From NCBI GenBank assembly GCA_964016885.1, contig OZ024742.1, forward strand, positions 339,574,001-339,638,000: a stretch of 64,000 nt of DNA, written 5' to 3'. The DNA comes from Eledone cirrhosa (lineage: Eukaryota). A program made the position numbers and the translations under genes. Under the pieces are notes generated by a model. It worked only from the letters and a program-made list of their open reading frames with translations, had not been told where the DNA came from and made no database searches. This document shows, in pieces, positions 23,385-54,457 of this stretch. Each line of letters begins with the position of its first letter. The stretch's first letter is position 1.

Positions 23385-24095
23385 CCTACATCCTACCTAC
23401 CTACCTACCTACCTACCTACCTACCTACCTACCTACCTACCTACCTACCTACCTAAATAGCTACCTACCTACCTACCTACCAAACTACCAACCTACCTAC
23501 CAACCAACCTACCTACCTAGCTACCTACCAACCAACCTACCTACCAACCAACCTACCTACCTAGCTACCTACCAACCAACCTACCTACCTACCTACCTAC
23601 CTACCTACCTACCTACCTACCAACCTACCTACCTCCCTCCCTACCTACCTACCTACCTACCTACCAACCTACAAACCTACCTACCTACCCACCTACCTAC
23701 CTACCTACCAACCTACCACCCTACTTACCTACCTACCTACCTACCTACCTACTTACCTACCTACCTACCTACCTACCTACCTACCTACCTACCTACCTAC
23801 CTACCTACTTACCTACCTACCTACCTACCTACCAACCTACCTACCTACGTACCAACCTACCTACCTACCAACCTACCAACCTACCTACCTACCTACCTAC
23901 CTACCTACCTACCTACCTACCTACCTACCTACCTACCTACCTACCTACCTACCAACCTACCAACCTACCTACCTACCTACCTACCTACCTACCTACCTAC
24001 CAACCTACCAACCTACCTACATACCTACCTACCTACCTACCTACCTACCTACCTACCTACCTACGTACCTACCTACCTACCTACCTACCTCCCTA
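23385..24095. repeat. (CCTA)n tetranucleotide tract
   Basis: Directly visible, about 0.7 kb. Confidence 0.97.
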
Positions 24096-25350
24096 CCGCT
24101 TGACCGTCGTGCCTTGTCCAGCCAAAACGCTCACCAAAATGGAGCGCGCGCTCTTCCAATTCCTTTGGAAGAAACGGGCTCCTTTGTTGAGAAGATCCAT
24201 CTGCTGCCAACACTCTTCAGACGGAGGGCTGGGGTTACCGTGGCTAACGATGCGCAAACACGCACTCAGGCTGCTTCACCTCCACGTATTCCTCACCAGA
24301 CAACCGGTGTGGGCCCCGTTAGTGAGGCGAGCCTTCCCACGACATTTCTCGCTGACCGAGCTGCAGTCCTGGGTCAAGCAATGGCGAGGAAAATGGGCGA
24401 CTGGCAGATCGAATGTGCTCAGGTGCTCACAGTCCTCTGGCAAACGGACCCGGCGATCAGTGGGGACTCCATTTCGACATTCTATAGAGGGTTGTTCCGC
24501 AGCAAGGGCGACGACACGCTCGGAGAAACTCTAGGCGTAGAGGAGAACGAACTGGCCAGTCTGTTCGGTAGGACCTTCCGCCCGGGGCCAATGGACAACT
24601 TCCAAAAGTCCCTGGCCTGGCAGTGCTACAGAGGAGCTCTACCAGTTCGAGACAAGCTCTACAGACATGGGCGCCCGGGTAAGGACCCTTCGAAAAAGAT
24701 CTGACCGAGATGCGTGCGCGACGAAGAAACCGTCGCGCACGCATTCATACACTGCCCGGGCGTTACCGACCTGTAGGGCTATGTAGAAGGACTATTGTCG
24801 CGGGTGGGACCAATCTAGTTGACCACCGAGTCCATTGTCATGATCAAACCGTCTCCCTCCTTCAAAAACGAGGGAGAGGCGGTTTTCCTATGTGTTATGT
24901 CTATGGTGAAAGAGGTTATATGGTGGACGAGGTTAAAAGGGCTGAGGTCAGACACCTTTCTCTCCGGCGAGGAACTGATTCGTTTTTTCAAATATCATTT
25001 TGGAAGAAGAATCAGGATGGAGAGAGAGGTGATGTACCCCAGCAAATTTTATAAAAGGTGGGTGAATGTGGCAAAGATGGCCCGACTGGTTGGGCCTTCT
25101 CTCTATATAAGCCTGTAAGTTGTGGAAAAAGAGGAAGAGAGGAAGGGAGTACTCACTCTTGGTGCTCCTGGAGATGAAGGTTGTACATTTTTTCGGGGTG
25201 TGTACAACCCCTGTGTAACACCTCCTCCCTATTGGGGATTTCAATTGTTATTTGTTATTGTATTAATAGTTTTATTTTCATATACCTGTATGTAAACTCC
25301 CTATTTGTATTTGTCCCCTTCTTTTGTGCCCTTGTGGCTAATAAAGGAAT
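24093..25350 (+). mobile_element. 5'-truncated Tx1/L1-group LINE (ORF2 C-terminal part + 3'UTR), decayed
   Basis: Frameshifted peptides TVVPCP..FLWKK..GGLGLP, MDNFQKSLAWQCYRGALPVR and KEVIWWTR match ORF2 at 47.3-48.35 kb. AATAAA at ~25340 is followed by a YCTA tail. Confidence 0.93.
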
Positions 25351-26780
25351 TTACCTATCTATCTTCCTACCTACCTACCTACCTACCTACCTACCTACCT
25401 ACCTACCTACCTATCTACCTACCTACCTACAGACCTACCTACCTACCTACCTACCTACCAACCTACCTACCTACCTACCTACCTACCTACCTACCTACCT
25501 AAATAGCTACCTACCTCCCTACCTACCTACCTACCTACCAACCTACCTACCTACCTACCTACCTACCTACCTACCTACCTACCTACCTATCTACCTACCT
25601 ACCTACCTATCTACCAACCTACCTACCTATCTACCTACCTACCTACCTACCTACCTACCTACCTACCTACCTACCTACCTACCTACCAACCAACCTACCT
25701 ACCTACCTACCTACCTACCTACCTACCTACCTACCTACCTAATTACCTACCTACCTACCCACCTACCTACCTACCTACCTACCCACCTACCTACCTACCT
25801 ACCTAATTACCTACCTACCTACCTACCTACCTACCTAATTACCTACCTACCTACCTACCCACCTACCTACCTACCTACCTACCTACCAACCTACCTACCT
25901 ACCTACCTACCTAACTACTTACCTACCTACCAACCTACCTACCTACCTACCTACCTACCTACCTACCTACCAACCAACCTACCTACCTACCTACCTACCT
26001 ACCTACCTACCTACCTACCTACCTACCTAATTACCTACCTACCTACCCACCTACCTACCTACCTACCTACCTACCCACCTACCTACCTACCTACCTACCT
26101 AATTACCTACCTACCTACCTACCTAATTACCTACCGACCTACCTACCCACCTACCTACCTACCTACCTACCTACCTACCAACCTACCTACTTACCTACCT
26201 ACCTACCTACTTACCTACCTACCAACCTACCTACCTACCTACCTACCTACCTACCTATCTACCAACCTACCTACCTACCTACCTACCTACCTACCTACCT
26301 ACCTACCTACCTGCCAACCAACCTACCTACCTACCTACCTACCTACCAACCTACCTACCTACCTACCTACCTACCTACCTACCTACCTACCTACCTACCT
26401 ATGAACCAACCTACCTACCTACCTACCTACCTACCTACCTACCTACCTACCTACCTACCTACCAACCTACCTACCTACCTACCTACCTACCTACCTACCT
26501 ACCAACCAACCTACCTACCTACCTACCTACCTACCTACCTACCAACCTACCTACCTAACTACCAACCTACCTACCTACCTACCTACCTACCTACCTACCT
26601 ATCTACCTCCCTACCTACCTACCTACCTACCTACCTACCTATCTACCTACCTACCTACCTACCTACCTACCTACCTACCTACCTACCTACCTACCAACCT
26701 ACCTACCTACCTACCTACCTACCTACCAACCTACCTACCTACCTACCTACCAACCTACCTACCTACCTACCTACCTACCT
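25351..26780. repeat. (CCTA)n tetranucleotide tract
   Basis: About 1.4 kb; the source of the LPTY pseudo-ORFs. Confidence 0.97.
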
Positions 26781-27725
26781 GACGCCCTCGGAGAAGCCCT
26801 AGACATGGAGGAGGACGAACTGGCCAGCCTGTTCGGTAGGACATTCAGCCCGGGACCTATGGACAACTTCCAGAAGTCCCTGGCCTGGCAGTGCTACCGA
26901 GGGGCTTTACCCGTTCGAGAAAGGCTCTACAGACACGGGCGCCCGGGTAGGGACCCCGCCAAAAAGATCTGTCCCAGATGCGTGTGCGACGAGGAAACCG
27001 TTGCACACGCATTGGTACACTGCTCGGGCGTAGCCGATCTGTGGGGCTATGTCGAACAACTGCTGTCAAGGGTGGGACCGATCCGGTTGACCACCGAGTC
27101 TATTGTAATGATCAAGCCGCCTCCCCCCTTCAAAGATAAAGCAGAGGCGGTGTTTCTGTGCGTAATAGCCATGGCGAAAGAGGTTGTATGGTGGACGCGT
27201 CTGAAAGGACTGAGGTCAGGCACCTTTCTCTCTGGCCAACAACTGGTCCGTTTCTTCCGATATCATTTCGGAAGAAGGATCAGGATGGAGAGAGAGGTGC
27301 TGCACCCCAGCCGTTTCTATGAAAGATGGGTGAAAGTGGCGAGAATGGCCCGTGTGAATGGGCCTTCACTCTACATCAGACTATAGGTGAGGAAGATGAA
27401 AGACCAAGGGAGCACCCCTTCTCTGTGCTCCTGAGGAGAAGGGTTGCACACTTTTTTCGGGGGTGTGTGCGACCCCCCAAGGCGCCTCCTCTCTATTGAG
27501 GATTTTGTTAAAAATTTTATTTTTTGTTATATCTTATTTTATTTTTATATTTTGTTATTGCCTCCTCCTTATTGAGGACGCCTTTTTGTGTAAACTCCCC
27601 CCTTTGTACTTGTCCCACTTTTGATGCCCTAGTGGCAAATAAAAGAAACATACCTATCTACCTACCTACCTACCTACCTACCTACCTACCAACCTACCTA
27701 CCTACCTACCTACCTACCAACCTAT
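26781..27725 (+). mobile_element. 5'-truncated Tx1/L1-group LINE (zinc-finger end of ORF2, 3'UTR, (CCTA)n tail)
   Basis: Open frame 26805-27386 with CPRC..ETVAHALVHC (zf-RVT-like CCHC). AATAAA at ~27638, then (CCTA)n to 27725. Confidence 0.93.
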
Positions 27726-38439: not shown

Positions 38440-41400
38440 ATGTCAAATGTGAGGTAGCACAAGTGATAAGATGCTCTCTGAAGCAAAGGAGTTCATCATT
38501 TTCGGTGAAAATGGTGGATTTCAAATAAACTCACCCCCCAGTAATTCGTCTTGAAACACTTCGAAGGACAGTTACCTTCAGAACTGTTTGAAATGAAACA
38601 AAAAGACCAACATTCTTCAGTCAAGGGGAAATCGAGGCAACTTTGAAGGAGATATTGCCAAACATTGACTTTATATAGAGGGCCAAACAGTATAGGAGTA
38701 TTTCGGTGCTCCTTAAAAGCGAGGCGCTCGCACAAAAATATTCAGTGACACCAATACTGTAAAAAAAATACACCTTTTTCCCTACAAACCTGGGAAAAAG
38801 GACTCAGAAAATCAGAATTGCAAACACACCATCAAATATTACTATTTGGTGGATATTGGCAGGTTTTTTAGAGGAGGGACAAGACACCAGTTTCTCCATC
38901 AAGAAGTCAACCAGACACACGTTGTCTGGTACAAATTTGGAGATTCTGGTGCAAATGAGGCCGGAGAGAATCTCCAAAATACCCGAAAAAGTGCTGGTGG
39001 ACAACAACAGCCACATAAGAATTTCGGTTGAAGGAAGAAAACCACGCTGCTTTCGATGTAACAGCACAGCACATCTAAAGGCCTCCTGCCCTTTACAGAC
39101 ATATTTTAATAAAACAAGCTCCCCCCAAAATACTGTTACCAACACCAACACCAAAACAAACACGACCACCACCACAACGACAACAACAACACATAAAACA
39201 AGCAAACGCACCAAAACAAACAGCCACTCAACCAACAACAGCAGGAAAAACACAAACAACTACCCCGAAGGACACAGTCCCACCCCATCCCACTCCATCC
39301 AACACTGCCACAAACACACACACAAACACACCATCACCACACAACATACCCCTACCGCAAGCTACTGATTACGAATCATCGTCAGACAAGGCTACTTCTT
39401 CATCTCCAAGTGAAGATGAAGGACAGCCTCAAAAATCCAAAAAATAAAAAAGGCACCACAAAGCCACAAAAACAACAATCACCAACACAACACCAACACA
39501 TAACCACCGACACAAACAAAAACACAAACAACACCGCAATCAACCCCACCCCCTACCAGCAAAGCAAACACCAATACCACCCCAAACACAAGCACCCACC
39601 ATAAAAAGAAAACTCCCGGACAAACAACAAACTAAAACAACACAACAAAAACAGAAACAACAATACGCATACATCAACACAAACAACAAGAGTTTGATGG
39701 AGGTCATCTCCCAAAACCCCAAGGTGGAGACGGAGGGTAAAACTTTCGTTAAAGCTGAATCGTCTCCACACCTCAAACTAATAAGAGTTTCTATGGAAAC
39801 ATATAGCGAACTAAAAACAAAATTTTCGCAGAACGTGGGCGACCCCTGTCAAAAACCCATAAACCGCGTCCTGTTAAAATGTTTCTCCACCCCACCCAAC
39901 ACTCCACCAGCACACAAATGGAGATTGAACAACCCGATCTCCAGGAAACGAAAAGGTAAATGAACCTTTTCTTCCTTTTTCGCCAACTCTTCTCCACCAG
40001 CATGGCTAATTTACAAGTTGGAGGTGTGAATGTGCGTGTCCTAGGGATGCCCTGGAAACAGGGCCAACTTTTAAACGACTTTAGGTCACACGGTATGGAT
40101 GTGATAGCCATCACTGAGTCCAGGATTCACAACAGGCAGCAACTAACCCCCATCTTCAATGACTTTGAGATCTACGCATCTCTCTGTCAGCCAGGAGGTG
40201 GAGGGTGAGTGGCTGTCATGTTTCGGAAAAACCTGGACGTCGAAGGACAGCAAGTACACTTGAACCCGGAGGGTAGACGTGAACAGTGTTGGAGGTGGAG
40301 CCTTCAGGCTGGTGGCCGTTTATGCCCCGACTGAGCAATCGCGTCTAGAGTCTTATCTGGGAACGTCTAGCTCCTTGTTTTTAGTGGGGGACTGGAATGG
40401 CATCCTAGACGCACGATGGGACTATGTATGATCATGTCCCAGTAGAGGGGAGTGCTACAGCCTAAAAAGATTTAATCGGCCAATTCCCACTGGCCGATAG
40501 GTATCGACTAGATTTCCTGACTGCACCATAGTGGACGTGGACAAACCATAGCGGGACATCTAGATCGTATTTAGACAGGTTCTTTATTACAGAGAGGGAG
40601 AGAGACAAAAAGATGTTAAGCTGTCCACAAATACACATGGTTGCCTATTCAGACCGCAAAATAGTCATCTGCATAGTCAACCGTGATAGAATACATAGAC
40701 AAGGACCCGGATACTGGAAGCTGAACGTGTCGCTACCGACACGTAAAGCCTACAGTGAACGGATAAGTAGATTAGTTAAGCAACAATTGACGGGAGCCAT
40801 CGTCAACAACAGATGGTGGTACTCCCTCAAGAAAGCAATTAGAGTAGAGTCGATAGACTTTAGTAGAGAGTTAGCCTTAGAGAGAAACAAAACAGAAGCG
40901 GAACTAGTAGCCAAGGTAGAGGAGGTGCTTAGGAGTGGCAACGTAGCTAGGGTGCTAGCAACGAGAACGGCACTGGACCAGTTATCCGACGCGAAACACG
41001 AAGACTGCGTGGTCAGAAGTAAATCGCGTGCTCTAGGAAACGAGGGAGCGAAAGCGGTTAGCTGGGCCCGAGTGGCAGAGGCGAAAAGTGGCAACAAGTC
41101 CACGATTCGGTCTTTGAAAGACCAAAACGGACGCGTGCTACTTGACCCCAAGCGAATGTGCGCGGCGTTTCAGCGGCACTTTGCGCAACTGTTCGGGCAG
41201 AGTGGTGGTGCGTCGAACGGGGCAATGGACTTCGGTTCATAACTGGACGGCCTGCCGCGTCTCTCGAGCATGGACGCTGAGTTCTGCGAAAGACCGATCA
41301 CAACCACTGAGATACGGGACGCTCTGGGCCGCTGCGGGAAACGCAAGTCTCCCGGTCTAGATGGTCTACCCTATGAGTTTTACATAGGCATGCCGGACTT

Positions 41401-42857
41401 GCTCTCTGGCGTCCTCAAGCCGTCTACTGCAACTGGCAGCAGAATGGGAGAATTCCCAGTTCTGCAGGCGGGGGCGTAGTAACGCTGATCAGGAAAGACG
41501 AGAACAAGGGGGACGAACTAAGCAACTTTAGGCCCATAACTCTGCTCAACACAGAGTTAAAGATTTTGGCCAAGGTATTGGCAACGAGGTTGGTGCTTGT
41601 CGTCGAGAACTTGGTAGGGAAAGTGCAAACGTGTGCAAACCCGACCAGGTCCATACACGACAACCTCCATCTCATGCGATACATCATAGAGAGGGTGGGT
41701 GTAAACCAGGCTTTGGTGGGGCTCTGATCAATTTAGATCAGTCTAAGGCGTTCGATAGGGTCGACCATCGCTACTTGGAAGCGGTTCTCAAGGCGGCCGG
41801 TTTCGGACCCGTCGTCAGAGGCTGGATCGCCGCAATGCACACCAACATCTGCTCAATGGTCAAGGTGAACGGCTACCTATCGGAGTCATTCGCAATCACG
41901 CGTTCCATCCGACAGGGATGCCCTCACTCAGAAGTGGGCAGAGTGCAAACTATCCTTGAAAGGTCGAGCGAAGGTGGCGAACACTTTCATAGCGTCCGTT
42001 ATCTACTACCGCTTGACCGTCGTGCCTTGCCCCGTGAACACCTCACCAAGATGGAACGCATGCTCTTCCAGATCCTTTGGAAGAAGCAGGCTCCACTGGT
42101 GAGGAGATCCGTCTTCTCTTAGCACCTTTCCAATGGACGGCTGGGAATGCTGTGGCTGATGATGCGCAAGCATGCGCTGAGGCTACGGCATCTACAGGTA
42201 TTCCTCATCGACGTCCAACAGGTGTGGGCACCGTTTGTGAGACAGACCGTCCTGCACGCAATTATATACTGCTCGGGCGTAACCGACCTGTGGAACTATG
42301 CAGAACAACTGCTGTCGCGTATGGGACAAATCCAGTTGACTGCCGAGTCCATAGTAAGGATCAAACCGCCAACTTCTTTCAAAAACGAAAGAGAGGCGGT
42401 TTTCCTCTGTATAGTGGCTATGGTGAAAGAGGTTATATGGTGGACGAGATTGAGAGGACTGAGGACAGATGCCTTTCTCTCCGGACAACAACTCATTCCC
42501 TTCTTTAGGTACCACTTTAGAAGAAAAATCAGAGTGGAGAGAGAGGCACTGCACCCCAGTAAATTTACTGAAAGATGTGGCAAAAATGGCCCGAGTGATT
42601 GGGCCTTCTCTGTTTTAAACCTGTAGGTTGAAGAAGAGAGCAAAAGGAAGAAAGGATCACTTTCACTACACGCTCCTGAAGTTGAGGGTTGTTCTATCGA
42701 CGGGCTATTAAAATATCCATTTGTGGGGCCTCCTCCCTATTGGGGATTTCCATTGTTATATTTGTTTCTTTCATATTTTTACACGATTGTATGTAAAATC
42801 CCCGACATGTCTTTGTTTTGTTCCCTTTTCTTGTGCGCCCTTGTGGCTAATAAAGAA

Positions 42858-42860
<3 letters not shown>
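38440..42860 (+). mobile_element. Tx1/L1-group LINE copy A, decayed, with two internal ORF2 deletions
   Basis: ORF1 knuckle CFRCNSTAHLKASC. ORF2 ATG at 40002 with APE motifs (GVNVR, TESR, GDWN, LDRF) and RT LDQSKAFDRVDH/RQGCP. Deletions at ~41925 (removes YADD) and ~42245. AATAAA then (TCTA)n. The 5' boundary is uncertain. Confidence 0.92.
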
Positions 42861-42890
<30 letters not shown>

Positions 42891-43091
42891 GATAGAGTAA
42901 GACACGCTTCACATCGGCTCCGCTATTCCATCGGGATTTACCCTTACTATTGTAAGTACCGGATAAATTTTTCAGTGCAACACATTTGGAACACTAACCC
43001 CTGTTATTTAGGGAAACATTTTTGCATTTACCCCCTTTTTAGGGGGTAAAATAAATATCTATTTTTGCCGAAAAATTTCTTTCTTGGCAGC

Positions 43092-44930
43092 ATGGCGGAA
43101 AAGATGGCAGACATGTCTGCCATTAGCTCTGCCACGCCCCCCAAGTCTGAAGAACAAAAAATAATTACAACAAAATTAGACATTGAAACAAACAAAGAAA
43201 ATGAAAAAACAAATGTTAAGGAAAATGAGCAAACAGAAAAAAACAAACAGAAAATAATACAAATAACGACAGGGCAACTTTCGCCCAGAAAACAAAACAA
43301 TCCATTACATACACACCAATTGACCTAACTGCCGCCAGAGAAAAACTGGCCGAAGCAAAGAAACACATTGTTTTGGGGGAGAACGGAATGTTTTCCATTA
43401 ACTCCCCCCCCAGAATTCAAGAAAGCCAGAGCAGAAAACACAGTTCTATACAGAACTATACTGAACCAGACAAGAAAGCCAGCACAGCCCAGCCAAATGG
43501 AAATAGAGTTAGTCCTAAAAGACTATATGAAGAATATTCTCTTCATACGAAAGGACCGACTCTATGGCAGCATTTCGGTCCTAACAAGAGACAAAGAAAC
43601 GGCGGAGAAGCTTTCCCTAAGCCCACTCTCGTCGACAACATATAGCTTCTATCCCTCCTACATGGGTAGAAGAACACAGAGAGTAAAAGTAAAAACAATG
43701 CTGCCCACAATGGACTTCTGGTGGGCTATTGCTGGCTTCATTGATATGGGCGAAGACACTATGCTGTCAATGGGGAAGGCAACTGGAGATGCGTTCCTGG
43801 GAATGGGCCTCGACATACTAGTCCAAATGAGGCCCGAAAGAATAGCACAAATTCCGGTTCGCATCTGGCTGGATGACCTTACCCCAATAGACATAATTGT
43901 AGAGGGGAGAAGACCAGCATGCTATTTATGCATGGAAAGGGGACACGTTAAGGCTAACTGCCCGAAACGTATCCCCCAAAAAGGACTATTGCCCACACCC
44001 ACCACAAACAGTACACCAGCACCACCCACCTCCAAAAATACACTAATACCACACACAGCAAACAAAATACAGACACCACCAACCACAAACACAACACAAA
44101 CATCACCACCACCAGCACCAAACACAAGCACGACACAAAAATCACCACCACCAACCACAACACAAACATCACCACCACCATCACCAACCACAAGCACGAC
44201 ACAAACATTACCACCACCACCACCACAAAACCCATTCCAAACAAATAATAAAAAAAACAGTAACAAATCTACCCCTCCCGCAAAAAGAAAACAACCACAC
44301 AACACGTCCCTCCGACCTAGCGCTGAAGAGTTTCCCCCAACTTCTGAAGAAGAAGGAGGAGAAGCCTTCAGACAAGTTAAAAGAAAAAAAAGAAAACACA
44401 CACCCAGCACACCACAAATAACCCACACACAAACACCAACTCCAATCAAAAACACCCCACCCTCAACAAACAAAAATAAATCTGCGCCTCCCCTCTCCGA
44501 AACATTGACAGCATCACAAAAAAAGACGTTGCAATACACATATATAAATAAAGAAAATAAAAAAACTGGTTAAATTAATAAACAATAACCCTATGGTGCA
44601 GACCGAAGGGCCAAACTTTATCTCAACAGAGAACTTCACCCATTTAAAAATGATAAAGGTCCCTCTGGACCTTTATCGTTCCTTAAAAGAACAACTTAGA
44701 CGGGACGTGAGCCCCCCCCCTGTTTAAAACCGTTGAATCGCGTCCTCTTGAAAGATTTCCCCATAACCGCCCCTCTCCCTGACACAACTCCAAATACCCC
44801 AACCCCACCACACACGTGTACCCCCACACCACCAAAAAACATCCCTCCACCCAACACACCTGATGCCATGGAAATTACGCAACCCGGAGAGGTAAGTGCT
44901 TTTCTTTCTTCACTTTCAACACCAAAATAG
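43092..44930 (+). pseudogene. LINE ORF1 (gag-like CCHC knuckle + Pro/Thr-rich tail), frameshifted at homopolymer runs
   Basis: MAEKMAD start; CYLCMERGHVKANC; split over several frames. Confidence 0.85.
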
Positions 44931-47900
44931 ATCAATTGAGAGTTGGCTGTTTGAACGCGCGTGGCCTGGGCTCAGCTTGGAAGCAAGCAAAGCTTCTAAG
45001 TGACCTCAGGTCACAAAGTATAGATGTGATGGTTGTTTGCGAGAGTCGGATCAGCAGCGTGAGACAGCTGGCGCCCGCCTTCGATGACTTTGAGATGCAC
45101 GCATCTCTCTGTCAACCCGGAGGCGGGGGGGGGGGGAGTTGCCGTACTGCTGGATAAACGTCTGACTCTCGACGTACAGATTGTTCACTCGGACCCGGGG
45201 GGTCGATTACAGGTGCTGGACGTCGGAGGCGGTGAAGGCGGGGCTTTCAGACTGGTCGGTCTTTATGCTCCCTTCGGGGCGGAAAGGGCCGACTTCTTCC
45301 AGCGTCTGGAGACTTTTCTAGGAACGTCGCGTTCCCTGCTTTTAGTGGGGGACTGGAATGGAATCCTAGATGCGCGTTGGGACTATGCAGGGGCATGTCC
45401 CGATAGAGGGGGGTGTAGCAGCCTCAAGGGGTTACTCAATCGATTCGACCTGGTCGATAGATTTCGACTAGATTGTCCAACTGCGCCAACCTGGACCTGG
45501 GCAAACCGCAGTGGACAATCTAGATCGTACCTAGATAGGTTTTTGGTTAGGAGTAAGGATAGGGACGTATTTAGTTGTCCAGAACTGATCATGGTTGGCT
45601 ATTCAGATCACAAATTAGTGACCTGCGTGGTCAACCTTGATAGAATGCATAGACAGGGTCCCGGTTACTGGAAGATGAACTTGTCCTTACCGACAAAGAA
45701 AGATTACAGAAACCGGATTAGTAGCTTAGTTAAGATGCGGTTGACGGGAGCGATCGTCAACAGTAGGTGGTGGGTATCTCTAAAGAGAGAGATTAGAGTA
45801 AGTTCGATAGGTTACAGTAAGGAACTAACGGCGAATAGAAATAGGAAGGAAAGGAGTTAACAGATAAACTAGAAGAGGCGATTAGGAGCGGAGACGTAGC
45901 CAGAGTGTTAGCGACGAGAACGGCATTGAGCCAGTTCTTTGACGCGAAGCACGAAGGCTGCGTTGTGCTTTAGGAAACGAGGGGACCAAAGCTGTTAGCT
46001 GGGCCCGCGTGACAGAAGCCAAGAGTGGGATTAAATCCACCATTCGGTCTTTGCGAGACCAGGATGGACGGGTGATCCTTGAACCTGAGCGAATGTGCGA
46101 GACCTTTCAAAGGCACTTTGCTCGACTGTTCGGAGGTGGCGGGGGGCCGGACGGGGATGTGGACTTCGGTCCATACCTCGACGGTCTACCGCGTCTTTCG
46201 AGCGGCGAAGCGGAATGCTGCGAAAGGCCAATCACAGCCACTGAAATCGGGGAAGCGCTCAGCCAATGCAGCAGACGCAAATCCCCGGGTCTCGATGGTC
46301 TACCATACGAACTTTATTTAGCTATGCCGGTCTTGTTCTCCGAACTCCTCGAGGCTGTCTATTGCAACTGGCAACAGAACGGGAGAATTCCCTGTTCTGT
46401 GACCAAGGGCGTGGTCACGCTAGTGAGGAAGGACGAGAGCAAGGGGGACGACTTAAGTAACTTTAGGCCCATAACTCTGCTGAGTGCAGAGTTACAGATT
46501 TTGGCCAAGGTGTTGGCGAAGAGGTTGGCGCTTGTGGTGGGTGGTTTGGTGGGAGACGCGCAGACATGCGCTATCCCGTCCAGGTCCATTCACGACAACC
46601 TCCACCTCATGCGATACATCATAGAGAGGGTTGGCTACGGACCCGGCTTTGGTGGGGCCCTGATCAACTTGGATCAATCTAAGGCGTTCGATAGGGTCGA
46701 CCATGGTTACCTGGATGCGGTGCTAGCGGCGGCGGGCTTCGGACCCGTTTTCAGGGGCTGGATTTCTGCCATGCACAGTGGCAACATCTACTCTAGGATT
46801 AAAGTAAACGGCTACCTCTCGGAGCCGTTTCAAATCACCCGATCCATCAGACAGGGGTGCCCCCTCTCCTCCCTTCTGTACGTATTGACTCTCGAGCCAC
46901 TGCTGCGGAAGTTGGAGTTGCTGCGGGGCATACCCCTGGAACCGGGATTGCACAAAGCGGTCTCGGCCTATGCCGACGACGTAACAGTAATGGTGGCGGA
47001 CGCCTCGGAAATCGGGGCGATCGCCACCCTACTGGAGGAATACGAAAGGCTGACGGGGGCTAAGCTGAACCAGGACAAGTCAGTCGGTTTGCAACTCGGA
47101 ACGTGGAGGGGCAAACCGATGCCGTTAGACGGTGTCGTCGGGCGGTGGACGGAGGGCCCGGTGAAGCTGCTCGGGGTCTGGTTCGGACCGGACCTCCAGG
47201 TGGAGAAGAATTGGGGCGAGGTGACGAGCAGGGTGTTTGCGCTGACCCAGAAGTGGGCGAAGTGCAAACTATCACTGAAAGGTCGGGCGGAGGTGACGAA
47301 CGCTTACATAGCGTCCGTCATCTACTACCACCTGACCGTCGTGCCTTGCCCCAAGGAAAAGCTCACCATCATGGAACGCATGCTCTTCCAGTTCCTCTGG
47401 AAGAAGCGGCCTCCCATGGTGAGGAGATCCATCTGCTGCCAGCACCCTTCGAAAGGAGGGCTGGGTATGCCGTGGCTGTTGATGCGTAGGCACGCATTGA
47501 GGCTACGGCATCTACAGGTATTCCTCAACGGTCAGCCGGTGTGGGCCCCGTTTGTGAGGCGAGCCTTCCCACAGCTCGTCTCGCTCACCGAACTGCAATC
47601 CTGGGTGAAGCAAAGACCGAGAAAACTGGGCAACTGGCACACCGAGTGTGCCCAGGCGCTCACGGCTATCTGGCAAGCGGACCCGACTGTCAGTGGAGAA
47701 TCCACCTCGACATTCTATAGAGGGTTGGTGGCTAGCAGGGGCGACAACACCCTTGGAGAGTCGCTAGGCATGGAGGAGGACGAACTGGCCAGCCTGTTCG
47801 GTAGAACTTTCGGCCCGGGACCCATGGACAACTTCCAGAGGTCCCTAGCCTGGCAGTGTTACCGGGGGGCTCTGCTCGTTCGAGAAAAGCTCTACAGACA

Positions 47901-48351
47901 CGGGCGCCCGGGCAGGGATCCCGCGAAAAAGATCTGTCCCAGATGCGTGCGCGACGAGGAAACCGTTGCGCATGCACTGGTACACTGCCCGGGCGTTGCC
48001 GATCTGTGGGGCTACGTCGAACGACTGCTGTCGCGTGTGGCGCCGATTCGATTAACCGCCGAGTCTGTGGTGAACATCAAGCCGCCTCCTCCCTTCAGAA
48101 ATGAAGCAGAGGCGGTCTTTCTGTGCGTAATAGCCATGATGAAAGAGGTTGTGTGGTGGACGCGCCTGAAAGGTCTGAGGTCGGGTGACTTTCTCTCCGG
48201 CCATCACCTGGTTTACTTCTTCCGATACCACTTCGGAAGAAGAATCAGGATGGAGAGAGAAGTGCTTGGTCGCAGACAGTTTTATGAAAGGTGGGTGAAA
48301 GAAGCGAGAATGGCCCGTGTAAATGGGCCTTCTCTCTACATTGTTCTGTAG
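44927..48351 (+). pseudogene. LINE ORF2 (APE endonuclease, RT, zf-RVT) with frameshifts in the 5' third
   Basis: LNARG, CESR, GDWN, LDRF, SDH; SPGLDG, NFRPITLL, DQSKAFD, RQGCPLS, YADD; CPRC..H..HC. Confidence 0.93.
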
Positions 48352-48810
48352 GTGAAGAAGTGAAGAGGAAAGGGGGAGCGCCTCCTCTCTGGGCTTCCCC
48401 CGCGAAAAGAGTTGCACACTTTTCGGGGGTATGTGCAATCCCCAACACGCCCCCTCCCTTTTGAGGACTATTTATTGTTATATTATTATTGTTATTCCTT
48501 TTTTCTTTACTCGATTTATGTAAACTCCCCCACTGTGTAAATGTCCCCTTCTTTTGTGCCCTCGTTGCAAATAAATAGAAATTTATCTATCTATCTATCT
48601 ATCTATCTTGATAGAGTAAGACACGCTTCGCATCGGCTCCGCTATTCCATCGGTATTTACCCTTACTATTGTAAGTACCGGATAAATTTTTTAGTGCAAC
48701 ACATTTGGAACACTAACCCCTGTTATTTAGGGAAACATTTTTGCATTTACCCCCTTTTTAGGGGGTAAAATATATATCTATTTTTGCCGAAAAATTTCTT
48801 TCTTGGCAGC

Positions 48811-50638
48811 ATGGCGGAAAAGATGGCAGACATATCTGCCATTAGCTCTGCCACGCCCCCCAAGTCTGAAGAGCAAAAAATAATTACAACAAAATTAGAC
48901 ATTGAAACAAACAAACAAAATGAAAAAACAAATGTTAAGGAAAATGAGCAAACAGAAAACAAACAAACAGAAAATAATACAAATAACGACAGGGCAACTT
49001 TCGCCCAGAAAACAAAACAATCCATTACATACACACCAATTGACCTAACTGCCGCCAGAGAAAAACTGGCCGAAGCAAAGAAACACATTGTTTTGGGGGA
49101 GAACGGAATGTTTTCCATTAACTCCCCCCCAGAATTCAAGAAAGCCAGAGCAGAAAACACAGTTCTATACAGAACTATACTGAACCAGACAAGAAAGCCA
49201 GCACAGCCCAGCCAAATGGAAATAGAGTTAGTCCTAAAAGACTATATGAAGAATATTCTCTTCATACGAAAGGACCGACTCTATGGCAGCATTTCGGTCC
49301 TAACAAGAGACAAAGAAACGGCGGAGAAGCTTTCCCTAAGCCCACTCTCGTCGACAACATATAGCTTCTATCCCTCCTACATGGGTAGAAGAACACAGAG
49401 AGTAAAAGTAAAAACAATGCTGCCCACAATGGTGGGCTATTGCTGGCTTCATTGATATGGGCGAAGACACTATGCTGTCAATGGGGAAGGCAACTGGAGA
49501 TGCGTTCCTGGGAATGGGCCTCGACATACTAGTCCAAATGAGGCCCGAAAGAATAGCACAAATCCCGGATCGCATCTGGCTGGATGACCTTACCCCAATA
49601 GACATAATTGTAGAGGGGAGAAGACCAGCATGCTATTTATGCATGGAAAGGGGACACGTTAAGGCTAACTGCCCGAAACGTATCCCCCAAAAAGGACTAT
49701 TGCCCACACCCACCACAAACAGTACACCAGCACCACCCACCTCCAAAAATACACTAATACCACACACAGCAAACAAAATACAGACACCACCAACCACAAA
49801 CACAACACAAACATCACCACCACCAGCACCAAACACAAGCACGACACAAAAATCACCACCACCAACCACAACACAAACATCACCACCACCATCACCAACC
49901 ACAAGCACGACACAAACATTACCACCACCACCACCACAAAACCCATTCCAAACAAATAATAAAAAAAACAGTAACAAATCTACCCCTCCCGCAAAAAAAA
50001 AACAACCACAAACACGTCCCTCCGACCTAGCGCTGAAGAGTTTCCCCCAACTTCTGAAGAAGAAGGAGGAGAAGCCTTCAGACAAGTTAAAAGAAAAAAA
50101 AGAAAACACACACCCAGCACACCACAAATAACCCACACACAAACACCAACTCCAATCAAAAACACCCCACCCTCAACAAACAAAAATAAATCTGCGCCTC
50201 CCCTCTCCGAAACATTGACAGCATCACAAAAAAAGACGTTGCAATACACATATATAAATAAAGAAAATAAAAAAACTGGTTAAATTAATAAACAATAACC
50301 CTATGGTGCAGACCGAAGGGCCAAACTTTATCTCAACAGAGAACTTCACCCATTTAAAAATGATAAAGGTCCCTCTGGACCTTTATCGTTCCTTAAAAGA
50401 ACAATTTAGACGGGACGTGAGCCCCCCCTGTTTAAAACCGTTGAATCGCGTCCTCTTGAAAGATTTCCCCATAACCGCCCCTCTCCCTGACACAACTCCA
50501 AATACCCCAACCCCACCACACACGTGTACCCCCACACCACCAAAAAACATCCCTCCACCCAACACCCCTGATGCCATGGAAATTACGCAACCCGGAGAGG
50601 TAAGTGCTTTTCTTTCTTCACTTTCAACACCAAAATAG
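48811..50638 (+). pseudogene. LINE ORF1, frameshifted
   Basis: As in copy B, with a private 8-bp deletion at ~49432. Confidence 0.85.
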
Positions 50639-53600
50639 ATCAATTGAGAGTTGGCTGTTTGAACGCGCGTGGCCTGGGCTCAGCTTGGAAGCAAGCAAAG
50701 CTTCTAAGTGACCTCAGGTCACAAAGTATAGATGTGATGGTTGTTTGCGAGAGTCGGATCAGCAGCGTGAGACAGCTGGCGCCCGCCTTCGATGACTTTG
50801 AGATGCACGCATCTCTCTGTCAACCCGGAGGCGGGGGGGGGGGGGGAGTTGCCGTACTGCTGGATAAACGTCTGACTCTCGACGTACAGATTGTTCACTC
50901 GGACCCGGGGGGTCGATTACTGGTGCTGGACGTCGGAGGCGGCGGGGCTTTCAGACTGGTCGGTCTTTATGCTCCCGTCGGGGCGGAAAGAGCCGACTTC
51001 TTCCAGCGTCTGGAGACTTTTCTAGGAACGTCGCGTTCCCTGCTTTTAGTGGGGGACTGGAATGGAATCCTAGATGCGCGTTGGGACTATGCAGGGGCAT
51101 GTCCCGATAGAGGGGGGTGTAGCAGCCTCAAGGGGTTACTCGATCGATTCGACCTGGTCGATAGATTTCGACTAGATTGTCCAACTGCGCCAACCTGGAC
51201 CTGGGCAAACCGCAGTGGACAATCTAGATCGTACCTAGATAGGTTTTTGGTTAGGAGTAAGGATAGGGACGTATTTAGTTATCCAGAACTGATCATGGTT
51301 GGCTATTCAGATCACAAATTAGTGACTTGCGTGGTCAACCTTGATAGAACGCATAGACAGGGTCCCGGTTACTGGAAGATGAACTTGTCCTTACCGACAA
51401 AGAAAGATTACAGAAACCGGATTAGTAGCTTAGTTAAGATGCGGTTGACGGGAGCGATCGTCAACAGTAGGTGGTGGGTATCTCTAAAGAGAGAGATTAG
51501 AGTAAGTTCGATAGGTTACAGTAAGGAACTAGCGGCGAATAGAAATAGGAGGGAAAGGAGTTAACAGATAAACTAGAAGAGGCGATTAGGAGCGGAGACG
51601 TAGCCAGAGTGTTAGCGACGAGAACGGCATTGAGCCAGTTCTTTGACGCGAAGCACGAAGGCTGCGTTGTCCGAAGTAAAATACGTGCTTTAGGAAACGA
51701 GGGGACCAAAGCTGTTAGCTGGGCCCGCGTGACAGAAGCCAAGAGTGGGATTAAATCCACCATTCGGTCTTTGCGAGATCAGGATGGACGGGTGATCCTT
51801 GAACCTGAGCGAATGTGCGAGACCTTTCAAAGGCACTTTGCTCGACTGTTCGGAGGTGGCGGGGGGCCGGACGGGGATGTGGACTTCGGTCCATACCTCG
51901 ACGGTCTACCGCGTCTTTCGAGCGGCGAAGCGGAGTGCTGCGAAAGGCCAATCACAGCCACTGAAATCGGGGAAGCGCTCAGCCAATGCAGCAGACGCAA
52001 ATCCCCGGGTCTCGATGGTCTACCATACGAACTTTATTTAGCTATGCCGGTCTTGTTCTCCGAACTCCTCGAGGCTGTCTATTGCAACTGGCAACAGAAC
52101 GGGAGAATTCCCTGTTCTGTGACCAAGGGCGTGGTCACGCTAGTGAGGAAGGACGAGAGCAAGGGGGACGACTTAAGTAACTTTAGGCCCATAACTCTGC
52201 TGAATGCAGAGTTACAGATTTTGGCCAAGGTGTTGGCGAAGAGGTTGGCGCTTGTGGTGGGTGGTTTGGTGGGAGACGCGCAGACATGCGCTATCCCGTC
52301 CAGGTCCATTCACGACAACCTCCACCTCATGCGATACATCATAGAGAGGGTTGGCTACGAACCCGGCTTTGGTGGGGCCCTGATCAACTTGGATCAATCT
52401 AAGGCGTTCGATAGGGTCGACCATGGTTACCTGGATGCGGTGCTAGCGGCGGCGGGCTTCGGACCCGTTTTCAGGGACTGGATTTCTGCCATGCACAGTG
52501 GCAACATCTACTCTAGGATTAAAGTAAACGGCTACCTCTCGGAGCCGTTTCAAATCACCCGATCCATCAGACAGGGGTGCCCCCTCTCCTCCCTTCTGTA
52601 CGTATTGACTCTCGAGCCACTGCTGCGGAAGTTGGAGTTGCTGCGGGGCATACCCCTGGAACCGGGATTGCACAAAGCGGTCTCGGCCTATGCCGACGAC
52701 GTAACAGTAATGGTGGCGGACGCCTCGGAAATCGGGGCGATCGCCACCCTACTGGAGGAATACGAAAGGCTGACGGGGGCTAAGCTGAACAAGGACAAGT
52801 CAGTCGGTTTGCAACTCGGAACGTGGAGGGGCAAACCGATGCCGTTAGACGGTGTCGTCGGGCGGTGGACGGAGGGCCCGGTGAAGCTGCTCGGGGTCTG
52901 GTTCGGACCGGACCTCCAGGTGGAGAAGAATTGGGGCGAGGTGACGAGCAGGGTGTTTGCGCTGACCCAGAAGTGGGCCAAGTGCAAACTATCACTGAAA
53001 GGTCGGGCGGAGGTGACGAACGCTTACATAGCGTCCGTCATCTACTACCGCCTGACCGTCGTGCCTTGCCCCAAGGAAAAGCTCACCATCATGGAACGCA
53101 TGCTCTTCCAGTTCCTCTGGAAGAAGCGGCCTCCCACGGTGAGGAGATCCATCTGCTGCCAGCACCCTTCGAAAGGAGGGCTGGGTATGCCGTGGCTGTT
53201 GATGCGTAGGCACGCATTGAGGCTACGGCATCTACAGGTATTCCTCAACGGTCAGCCGGTGTGGGCCCCGTTTGTGAGGCGAGCCTTCCCACAGCTCGTC
53301 TCGCTCACCGAACTGCAATCCTGGGTGAAGCAAAGACCGAGAAAACTGGGCAACTGGCACACTGAGTGTGCCCAGGCGCTCACGGCTATCTGGCAAGCGG
53401 ACCCGACTGTCAGTGGAGAATCCACCTCGACATTCTATAGATGGTTGGTGGCTAGCAGGGGCGACGACACCCTTGGAGAGTCGCTAGGCATGGAGGAGGA
53501 CGAACTGGCCAGCCTGTTCGGTAGAACTTTCGGCCCGGGACCCATGGACAACTTCCAGAGGTCCCTAGCCTGGCAGTGTTACCGGGGGGCTCTGCCCGTT

Positions 53601-54071
53601 CGAGAAAAGCTCTACAGACACGGGCGCCCGGGCAGGGATCCCGCGAAAAAGATCTGTCCCAGATGCGTGCGCGACGAGGAAACCGTTGCGCATGCACTGG
53701 TACACTGCCCGGGCGTTGCCGATCTGTGGGGCTACGTCGAACGACTGCTGTCGCGTGTGGCGCCGATTCGATTAACCGCCGAGTCTGTGGTGAACATCAA
53801 GCCGCCTCCTCCCTTCAGAAATGAAGCAGAGGCGGTCTTTCTGTGCGTAATAGCCATGATGAAAGAGGTTGTGTGGTGGACGCGCCTGAAAGGTCTGAGG
53901 TCGGGTGACTTTCTCTCCGGCCATCACCTGGTTTACTTCTTCCGATACTACTTCGGAAGAAGAATCAGGATGGAGAGAGAAGTGCTTGGTCCCAGACAGT
54001 TTTATGAAAGGTGGGTGAAAGAAGCGAGAATGGCCCGTGTAAATGGGCCTTCTCTCTACATTGTTCTGTAG
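50635..54071 (+). pseudogene. LINE ORF2 (APE-RT-CCHC) with a single frameshift at ~51555
   Basis: 306-aa APE frame plus 820-aa RT frame containing all motifs. Confidence 0.93.
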
Positions 54072-54457
54072 GTGAAGAAGTGAAGAGGAAAGGGGGAGCG
54101 CCTCCTCTCTGGGCTTCCCCCGCGAAAAGAGTTGCACACTTTTCGGGGGTATGTGCAATCCCCAACACGCCCCCTCCCTTTTGAGGACTTTTTATTGTTA
54201 TATTATTATTGTTATTCCTTTTTTCTTTACTCGATTTATGTAAACTCCCCCACTGTGTAAATGTCCCCTTCTTTTGTGCCCTCGTGGCAAATAAATAGAA
54301 ATTTATCTATCTATCTATATCTATTTTTTCTGTCCCTCTATCTGTCTCTCTGTCAATCTGTCTATCCTCGTCTCTTTCTCTCTCTTTCCTCCTCTATCTC
54401 CCTCATACGCTCTCTCCACCCATCTCTCTCTCTTTCCTCCTCTATCTCCCTCATACG

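What the first reader, a model, noticed from the sequence alone, without database searches (positions are those of the whole stretch)
42952..43094. Retained spliceosomal-intron signature in the Tx1 LINE 5'UTR, ending 1 nt before the ORF1 ATG
Seen: GTAAGT at 42952, a branch-point-like CACTAAC at 42992, and TTTCTTTCTTGGCAG|C-ATG at 43090/43092. The same signals are in copy C (48671-48809). The only two AGs between branch point and acceptor sit inside hairpin stems (CCCT/AGGG and the perfect 10-bp TTTACCCCCT/AGGGGGTAAA), which would hide them and shorten the effective distance. Established: LINEs are copied from RNA, so introns are normally lost. Inference: this family may translate from a spliced RNA while mobilising the unspliced RNA.
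Basis: partly seen in the sequence, partly recalled or inferred. Interest (0 to 1): 0.75.

Follow-up and report, generated by a model that had tools for sequence, protein, structure and literature searches.

The report
Working splice donor in LINE leader
A jumping gene with hundreds of full-length copies in this animal genome has a splice-start signal near its front end that, in one public sequencing run, is joined to an exon of a neighbouring host gene; because the matching splice-end signal is missing in several related families and no intron-less copy was found, the signal likely serves mainly as a docking site for the cell's U1 splicing particle rather than marking a routinely removed intron.

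Summary
The motifs are there, but copy C is 98.7% identical to B and adds nothing. The element is a young, (ATCT)n-targeting L1/Tx1-group LINE of a likely octopod. The donor is real: in run X2 a contig leaves the leader at this donor and continues in an exon behind a canonical acceptor, 9.5 kb downstream of a copy carrying the matching rare allele; the next exons are UreG-like. A GTRAG lies in the first 100 nt of 11 of 12 diverged leaders. The rest of the proposed intron is weaker: YAG just before the ATG in 5 of 9 leader types, CTAAC changed in a sister subfamily, and 0 intron-less genomic copies against 481. Splicing of the 139-nt intron is neither shown nor excluded. Best reading (0.5): a promoter-proximal U1 site on a mostly unspliced RNA, like the conserved donor in the human L1 5'UTR. 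A Penelope-type retained intron stays possible (0.3). The scan had already noted donors in these LINEs, and the U1 idea, on other DNA of this genome; the spliced junction is new.

The parts
42858..42889 (+). (ATCT)n: tail of upstream element A and target site of copy B
   Evidence: 30 of 30 top copies start TGATAGAG right after an ATCT run
42890..42951 (+). 62-nt leader (first exon) of LINE copy B; likely holds the internal promoter (AGACAC at 42900, RGAYRY at +6 to +12 in 8 of the 12 leaders; 'DPE-like' is a recalled label)
   Evidence: the last 30 nt are joined to a host exon in X2
42952..42957 (+). 5' splice donor GTAAGT, shown used in another copy of the family
   Evidence: GTAAGT in all 100 listed of 481 matches
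42992..42998 (+). branch-point-like CACTAAC at the foot of hairpin 1; not kept in subfamily B2 (CACCTAC)
42999..43013 (+). hairpin 1 (CCCUG/UAGGG); longer stems of other sequence stand at this place in related leaders
   Evidence: predicted
43027..43050 (+). hairpin 2, 10 bp; related leaders have TTTTCGCCCC/GGGGCGAAAA, a change on both sides
   Evidence: predicted; compared by eye, no formal covariation test
43066..43089 (+). hairpin 3, predicted to cover the pyrimidine tract and the A of the acceptor AG; weak in B2 and not general
43076..43090 (+). acceptor-like pyrimidine tract + CAG; use not shown; CAGC-ATG also resembles the CAAC-ATG start context of ORF2 in related families
43092..44930 (+). 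ORF1 (frameshifted in this copy; 610 aa in copy L034, with a weak CCHC knuckle)
44892..44897 (+). second donor AG|GTAAGT near the end of ORF1, found in 15 of 15 copies compared; on the ORF1 stop in other families, out of that frame in B
44927..48351 (+). ORF2, APE endonuclease + reverse transcriptase (broken in this copy); begins with ATA in 22 of 22 B copies where relatives have ATG
48352..48391 (+). purine-rich start of the 3'UTR, predicted to pair with donor 2 and its spacer
   Evidence: -36.6 kcal/mol in copy L034, 0 of 108 ORF2 windows better
48609..54327 (+). tandem copy C (donor 48671, acceptor-like AG 48808-09, ATG 48811)
38469..42857 (+). 5'-truncated element A of a diverged family (about 73% identical in ORF2); its full-length relatives gave the comparison

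Best explanation
The GTAAGT at 42952 is a working 5' splice site 62 nt from the 5' end of a young LINE, and it is likely kept as a promoter-proximal docking site for U1 snRNP on an RNA that likely stays unspliced inside the element. Shown: the donor splices to a host exon in one copy; a GTRAG is kept in diverged leaders and has shifted position in some; the acceptor is optional; genomic copies keep the segment. Inferred: U1 bound there would protect the transcript from early termination or premature polyadenylation in the A-rich ORF1, and a second donor at the ORF1 end would do the same or is held by a long-range helix. The local CAG is likely a weak site that is partly start-codon context. 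Where a copy lands in sense upstream of a host exon, the donor is captured by the stronger host acceptor, and the leader likely becomes an alternative first exon.
For: (1): in run X2 one contig follows the leader for 30 nt and leaves it one base before the predicted exon end, with an A. Its continuation maps once in the genome, directly behind CTAAT..TTTTAG, as a 71-nt exon ending at GTAAGT. A full-length copy lies 9,466 nt upstream on the same strand and carries the CTATA|GTAAGT allele (11 of 100 listed copies). The exact 30-letter joined form has 0 genomic matches. That copy's own CACTAAC and GGCAG are intact and are skipped. (2) GTRAG in the first 100 nt of 11 of 12 leaders (chance 0.05-0.23 each), which are about 50% identical to B. 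Where the first site reads AGAAGT (L146/148, L152-154) a GTGAGT/GTAAGT stands about 30 nt further on. (3) No AG within 52 nt of the ATG in A2 (10 copies) or within 60 nt in L143; the nearest is AAG at 12-15 nt in L134 and L146/148. (4) 0 intron-less copies against 481, 0 copies with any base but G after the leader, the 4 acceptor-side variants all keep the intron, and 0 against 34 in family A1. At the 1.8% of human L1PA1-6 (PMC5860796) about 9 would be expected. (5) Donor 2 has no AG in its spacer in 12 of 15 copies, so donors without a local acceptor are normal in this clade. (6) Precedents: mutating the L1 5'UTR donor cut RNA to about 18% while most 5'UTRs stay unspliced (PMC5860796); an unspliced 5' splice site protects from Restrictor in mammalian cells (PMC12211998).
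Against: No test of U1 binding or of an effect on transcription was possible. B has a full intron signature (0 of 3000 shuffles). B2 keeps a pyrimidine tract + CAG, A1 keeps CAG in 23 of 25 scorable copies (5 of 30 not scorable), and 5 of 9 leader types have YAG within 5 nt of the ATG against a chance of 0.03-0.12 each, which hints at an ancestral acceptor. The junction rests on one contig of one run that is not on record as RNA. L160 has no GTRAG and L140's homologous site is GTAATT. The two donor positions are inherited, so 11 of 12 is not 11 independent events. The authors of PMC5860796 explain the L1 donor by a RUNX3 DNA site, not by U1. The first AATAAA in ORF1 of B lies 1.3 kb behind donor 1.
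Confidence: 0.5

Rival explanations
1. A true retained 5'UTR intron, as in Penelope: family B (and A1) splice the 139-190 nt intron in part of their RNA to aid export or translation of ORF1, while unspliced RNA is the one copied into the genome.
For: Full GT..CTAAC..Yn CAG signature in B; donor shown active; YAG within 5 nt of the ATG in 5 of 9 leader types, in 23 of 25 A1 copies and in B2; AGs in hairpins 1 and 2 are paired; Penelope precedent with a 75-bp intron 46 bp from the start (PMC2377424, passages).
Against: Acceptor absent in 4 of 9 leader types, including A2 with 10 copies; CTAAC changed in B2; 0 spliced retrocopies against 481 although LINE proteins favour their own RNA (PMC5860796); in the one junction seen the local acceptor is skipped; in X2 one contig runs unbroken from the intron 47 nt into ORF1, though that could come from copies inside host pre-mRNA.
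Confidence: 0.3
2. The GTAAGT is a by-product of a DNA promoter element (as the L1 donor lies in a RUNX3 site); its splicing to host exons is incidental and U1 plays no selected role.
For: In most families the motif sits in a TTCGC..AAGTTT block near the 5' end whose AAG(T)T survives where GT is lost; donor strength by U1 pairing is unremarkable in 10 of 12 leaders; L1 precedent (PMC5860796).
Against: Lineages that lost GT at the first site carry a GTGAGT or GTAAGT about 30 nt further on, and B has its donor at +63. The second donor varies among GTAAGT, GTGAGT and GTAGGT and persists when out of frame with the stop, which fits U1 pairing better than one DNA-binding protein.
Confidence: 0.15
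3. The junction in X2 is host-driven exonisation: (ATCT)n-TGATAG acts as an acceptor, so the leader is a 56-nt cassette exon in the host pre-mRNA, and the signal has no role for the element.
For: The copy at C3:31.436 Mb has TATCTATCTCTCTTGATAG before the leader, and this context scored as acceptor-like in 5 of 6 tandem junctions covered. The 5' part of the X2 transcript was not seen.
Against: X2 lists no loose end before the leader (records can be filtered out, so this is weak). It does not explain why donors are kept in families whose leaders lack this AG (A2, L134, L143).
Confidence: 0.05

Closest known systems
Human L1 5'UTR splice donor G98U99 and SpIREs (PMC5860796; passages read)
   Same: L1-group LINE with a conserved donor near the 5' end of its internal promoter, mostly unspliced; acceptors vary.
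   Different: L1 leaves spliced retrocopies (116 of 6,609, 1.8%), here 0 against 481; the L1 donor is credited to a RUNX3 site; here the donor shifts position between lineages and a second donor sits at the ORF1 end.
Penelope retained 5' intron (PMC2377424; passages read)
   Same: Short intron-like segment tens of bases behind the start of a retroelement with an internal promoter, kept in genomic copies.
   Different: Penelope is a PLE, most of its transcripts are spliced, and both donor and acceptor are conserved at 67% identity; here the acceptor is not conserved and internal splicing is not shown.
Protection of nascent RNA by a promoter-proximal 5' splice site (Restrictor; PMC12211998, abstract and section 6 read); U1 telescripting and the HIV-1 major donor (recalled)
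   Same: Sense-strand 5' splice site close to the start that can act without splicing.
   Different: Shown in mammalian cells, not for LINE leaders in what I read, and untested here.
Microsatellite-targeting Tx1 elements Kibi (TC)n and Koshi (TTC)n (PMC4494074; passages read)
   Same: APE-RT LINE that inserts in a microsatellite.
   Different: Target is (ATCT)n; membership of the Tx1 clade itself could not be tested without named references.

Membership tests
L1/Tx1-group non-LTR retrotransposon | ORF2 with APE endonuclease and reverse transcriptase | tested here: met
   PF03372 E 1.6e-11, PF00078 E 5.5e-24
L1/Tx1-group non-LTR retrotransposon | ORF2 closer to L1 than to R2 | tested here: met
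   human L1 ORF2p E 1e-50 over residues 26-880; R2 E 8e-23 at best
L1/Tx1-group non-LTR retrotransposon | ORF1 zinc knuckle and ORF2 C-terminal zinc domain | tested here: inconclusive
   zf-CCHC E 0.018 and zf-RVT E 2.9e-5, both under Pfam's cut-off
Tx1 clade | target-site preference | tested here: met
   30 of 30 copies start after an ATCT run
Tx1 clade | RT phylogeny with named Tx1 references | not testable with these tools
Spliceosomal intron 42952-43090 | donor used in splicing | tested here: met
   (one contig, to a host acceptor, in another copy)
Spliceosomal intron 42952-43090 | own acceptor used (junction 42951-43091) | tested here: inconclusive
   one search lists no joint, but contigs show presence only
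Spliceosomal intron 42952-43090 | branch-point motif conserved | tested here: not met
   B2 copies L167 and L168 read CACCTAC; CTRAC occurs in 25% of shuffles
Penelope-type retained intron | donor and acceptor both conserved between diverged families | tested here: not met
   YAG within 5 nt of the ATG in 7 of 12 copies, 5 of 9 leader types
Penelope-type retained intron | genomic copies keep the intron | tested here: met
SpIRE-forming LINE | spliced retrocopies in the genome | tested here: not met
   0 against 481 (B), 0 against 34 (A1)
Protective promoter-proximal U1 site | sense 5' splice site near the 5' end, kept across lineages | tested here: met
   11 of 12 leaders
Protective promoter-proximal U1 site | U1-dependent rise in full-length RNA | not testable with these tools
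   needs a reporter or a U1 block

The most novel reading that the evidence does not exclude
This octopod LINE clade is built around two U1 sites without fixed acceptors. In family B the first also opens a hairpin-gated 139-nt intron that splits its RNA into a spliced, translated pool and an unspliced, mobilised pool, against cis-preference. Its about 480 intact leaders act as portable promoter-plus-first-exon modules that rewire host genes, as seen for a UreG-like gene.
Probability: 0.2. Interest if true: 0.75.

Novelty: new variant of a known kind. Interest (0 to 1): 0.47.

Why it matters
Why L1-type LINEs keep splice donors that can destroy their own RNA is an open question raised in PMC5860796. 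A non-mammalian clade whose donor is kept while its position and neighbours change favours an RNA-level (U1) answer and gives natural alleles to test it. The junction also shows one route by which a very recent LINE burst can give octopod host genes new 5' ends.

Tried and rejected
No RNA holder listed (5 runs, none on record as RNA). No joint 42951-43091 in 4 runs of contigs; not counted as evidence, because Logan contigs are simplified with SPAdes-like heuristics (PMC12424806, passages) and a short 5'-terminal junction path could be removed (my inference). X2 has no cover over the first 30 nt or so of the leader, and its contig depths differ along the stretch; neither was used to rank forms. 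An acceptor before ORF2 for a leader-to-ORF2 message: rejected, family A reads CCAAC-ATG and the window copy's CAG is nearly private. ORF2 spliced out in genomic copies: 0 in B and 0 in A (no matched control counts). Donor 1 hidden by a conserved hairpin: in several leaders, B among them, pairing was no higher than the UTR mean. Conserved acceptor-like TTTTAG inside the endonuclease (window 45345, 11 of 11 rows): third-base invariance is common in this alignment (92 of 263), so no claim is made. Rfam: no match reached a gathering score in 36000-58000. Earlier findings by sequence: none. The long-range duplex could not be placed in 3 of 8 copies.

Full report
Observation. All motifs are at the stated places, and the two AGs behind CACTAAC fall in predicted stems. 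In 3000 dinucleotide shuffles of the leader, a GTRAGT together with a pyrimidine-rich YAG before the ATG never arose, although the motifs were picked after the fact and CTRAC alone arose in 25%. By U1 complementarity the B donor is ordinary (p = 0.26). Copy C is 98.7% identical to B, so it is not independent. A third predicted stem covers the acceptor tract.

The element. B and C are tandem copies of a 5.7-kb LINE; both are broken in this window. Copy L034 has a 610-aa ORF1 and an APE-RT ORF2, whose best solved relative is human L1 ORF2p. The closest named homologue is from Argonauta hians (67% over part), so the host is likely an octopod. The 40 best of 663 candidates are 99-100% identical over 311 nt, and 30 of 30 start after (ATCT)n. 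An exact pattern around the donor matches 481 places. 'Tx1' could not be tested by phylogeny.

Evidence from runs. Five runs hold the element. The 5' 355 nt were laid on four of them, all contigs. In X2 (88 million letters of contigs, against about 1,400 in X1 and X4) one contig follows the leader for 30 nt (worked out from the depth bins) and continues for 255 letters or more in other sequence, starting with A where this copy has T. The continuation maps once in the genome, at the first base behind CTAAT..TTTTAG, in a 71-nt exon closed by GTAAGT. A full-length copy lies 9,466 nt upstream on the same strand and carries the CTATA|GTAAGT allele, seen in 11 of 100 listed copies. The exact joined form is not in the assembly, and X1, X4 and X5 list no such loose end. 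So this is a GT-AG splice from the donor in question, and X2 is inferred to be RNA. A copy within 10 kb upstream on the right strand has a chance of about 0.001 (481 x 10 kb over 2 x 3 Gb), before the allele is counted. The next two predicted exons match UreG model positions 3-27 (E 0.0017; a generic NTPase model scored slightly better) and 43-70 (E 0.12) in order, so the host gene is likely a UreG-like GTPase; 2 of the 4 exons scanned had no match. That copy's own branch-like motif and acceptor are intact and were skipped. In X2 another contig runs unbroken from the intron into ORF1; it may be unspliced element RNA or copies inside host pre-mRNA. No internal joint was listed, which is not evidence of absence for contigs (PMC12424806, passages).

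Genomic copies. No intron-less B copy against 481; no copy with any base but G after the leader; the 4 hits with a changed base before the ATG all keep the intron; no intron-less A1 copy against 34. Spliced acceptors that begin with G are not covered. Human L1 leaves 1.8% spliced retrocopies through cis-preference (PMC5860796, passages), which would give about 9 here. RNA that makes the transposition machinery in the germ line is therefore likely unspliced in the leader, unless the spliced form is barred from integration.

Related families. Full-length copies were taken from relatives of element A and from 34 tandem neighbours (16 had the ORF1 domain of a diverged element, and 3 more gave only the ORF junction). 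Twelve leaders, grouped by eye into 9 types, were scored; L149 was dropped because its ATG could not be placed, and microsatellite remnants were trimmed by hand in two. Their leaders are 45-58% identical to B, near random, while the start of ORF2 is 68-83% identical (56% for L143, which has a deletion). GTRAG lies in the first 100 nt in 11 of 12. It is at +28 to +32 in A1, A2, L134, L143 and L156; where that site reads AGAAGT, a donor motif stands about 30 nt further on. YAG within 5 nt of the ATG is present in 7 of 12 copies (5 of 9 types) and absent in A2, L134, L143 and L146/148. A1 and A2 differ right there (ATCAGC-A-ATG against ATCGAT-A-ATG). A1 keeps CAG in 23 of 25 scorable copies. Subfamily B2 keeps the tract and CAG but not CTAAC. 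Hairpins 1 and 2 recur with changed sequence in most types and are largely lost in L140, so they are probably selected, though not clearly to hide AGs, since they persist where no acceptor exists. The types share ancestry, so these counts are not independent events.

Second donor. AG|GTAAGT, GTGAGT or GTAGGT stands 28-47 nt before the ORF2 start in 15 of 15 copies, with no AG in the spacer in 12. It overlaps the ORF1 stop except in B. After two earlier notes pointed to it, I confirmed a predicted duplex of this spacer with the start of the 3'UTR in 4 of 5 testable copies (0-1 of about 100 control windows better; L152 10 of 108). No genomic copy with ORF2 spliced out was found.

Mechanism. Shown: the donor splices; it is kept while the acceptor is optional; genomic copies keep the segment. 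Inferred: U1 binding near the internal promoter protects the RNA, as an unspliced 5' splice site does against Restrictor in mammalian cells (PMC12211998, abstract and section 6). The CAG before the ATG is likely weak and partly start context (relatives use CAAC-ATG for ORF2). I give this 0.5, a Penelope-type retained intron 0.3 (PMC2377424, passages), a DNA promoter by-product 0.15 and host exonisation alone 0.05; the first two can both hold in B.

Novelty. A conserved, rarely spliced 5'UTR donor is known in human L1, and a retained 5' intron is known in Penelope. Searches listed no paper on splice signals in cephalopod L1/Tx1 LINEs; PMC13282606 (passages) counts 13 recently active L1-Tx1 families in Octopus vulgaris and has no word starting 'splic' in its main text. 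The library lacks most subscription papers, and I read no supplements, where family-level notes could lie. The scan had noted these donors and the U1 idea on other DNA of this genome, without RNA evidence. Verdict: new variant of a known kind, interest 0.47.

Noticed in passing
G000:C3:31436422-31416000 (L082-L085): Full-length copy 9.5 kb upstream of the likely first coding exon of a UreG-like GTPase gene; its leader is spliced to that exon in X2. A UreG-like gene in an animal is itself unusual (recalled, unchecked).
   Followed up: partly
window 44927-44930: Family B has ATA in place of the ORF2 ATG in 22 of 22 copies, overlapping the ORF1 stop (A-TAG); ORF2 would need non-AUG reinitiation or a -1 frameshift, yet the family is young and abundant.
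   Followed up: partly
window 44888-44926 and 48349-48391: Predicted long-range helix between donor 2 with its spacer and the start of the 3'UTR, also in L134, L143 and L148.
   Followed up: partly
window 45325-45345 and 51029-51049: Acceptor-like pyrimidine tract + TAG inside the endonuclease in 11 of 11 aligned copies; may be only Leu-Leu-Leu-Val coding.
   Followed up: partly
L134, L143, L146, L148, L152, L153: Leader types do not follow the ORF2 tree (L134 with L143; L146/148 with L152/153), which suggests 5'UTR swapping between families.
   Followed up: no
window 42884-42896: The element's first bases (GATAG) are the reverse complement of the target repeat just upstream (CTATC); many copies are full length with a precise 5' end.
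   Followed up: no
window 1-21100: Long array of 14/15/29-nt units filling about a third of the window.
   Followed up: no
window 24093-27675: 3' fragments of two more families of the same clade, separated by a 1.4-kb (CCTA)n tract.
   Followed up: partly
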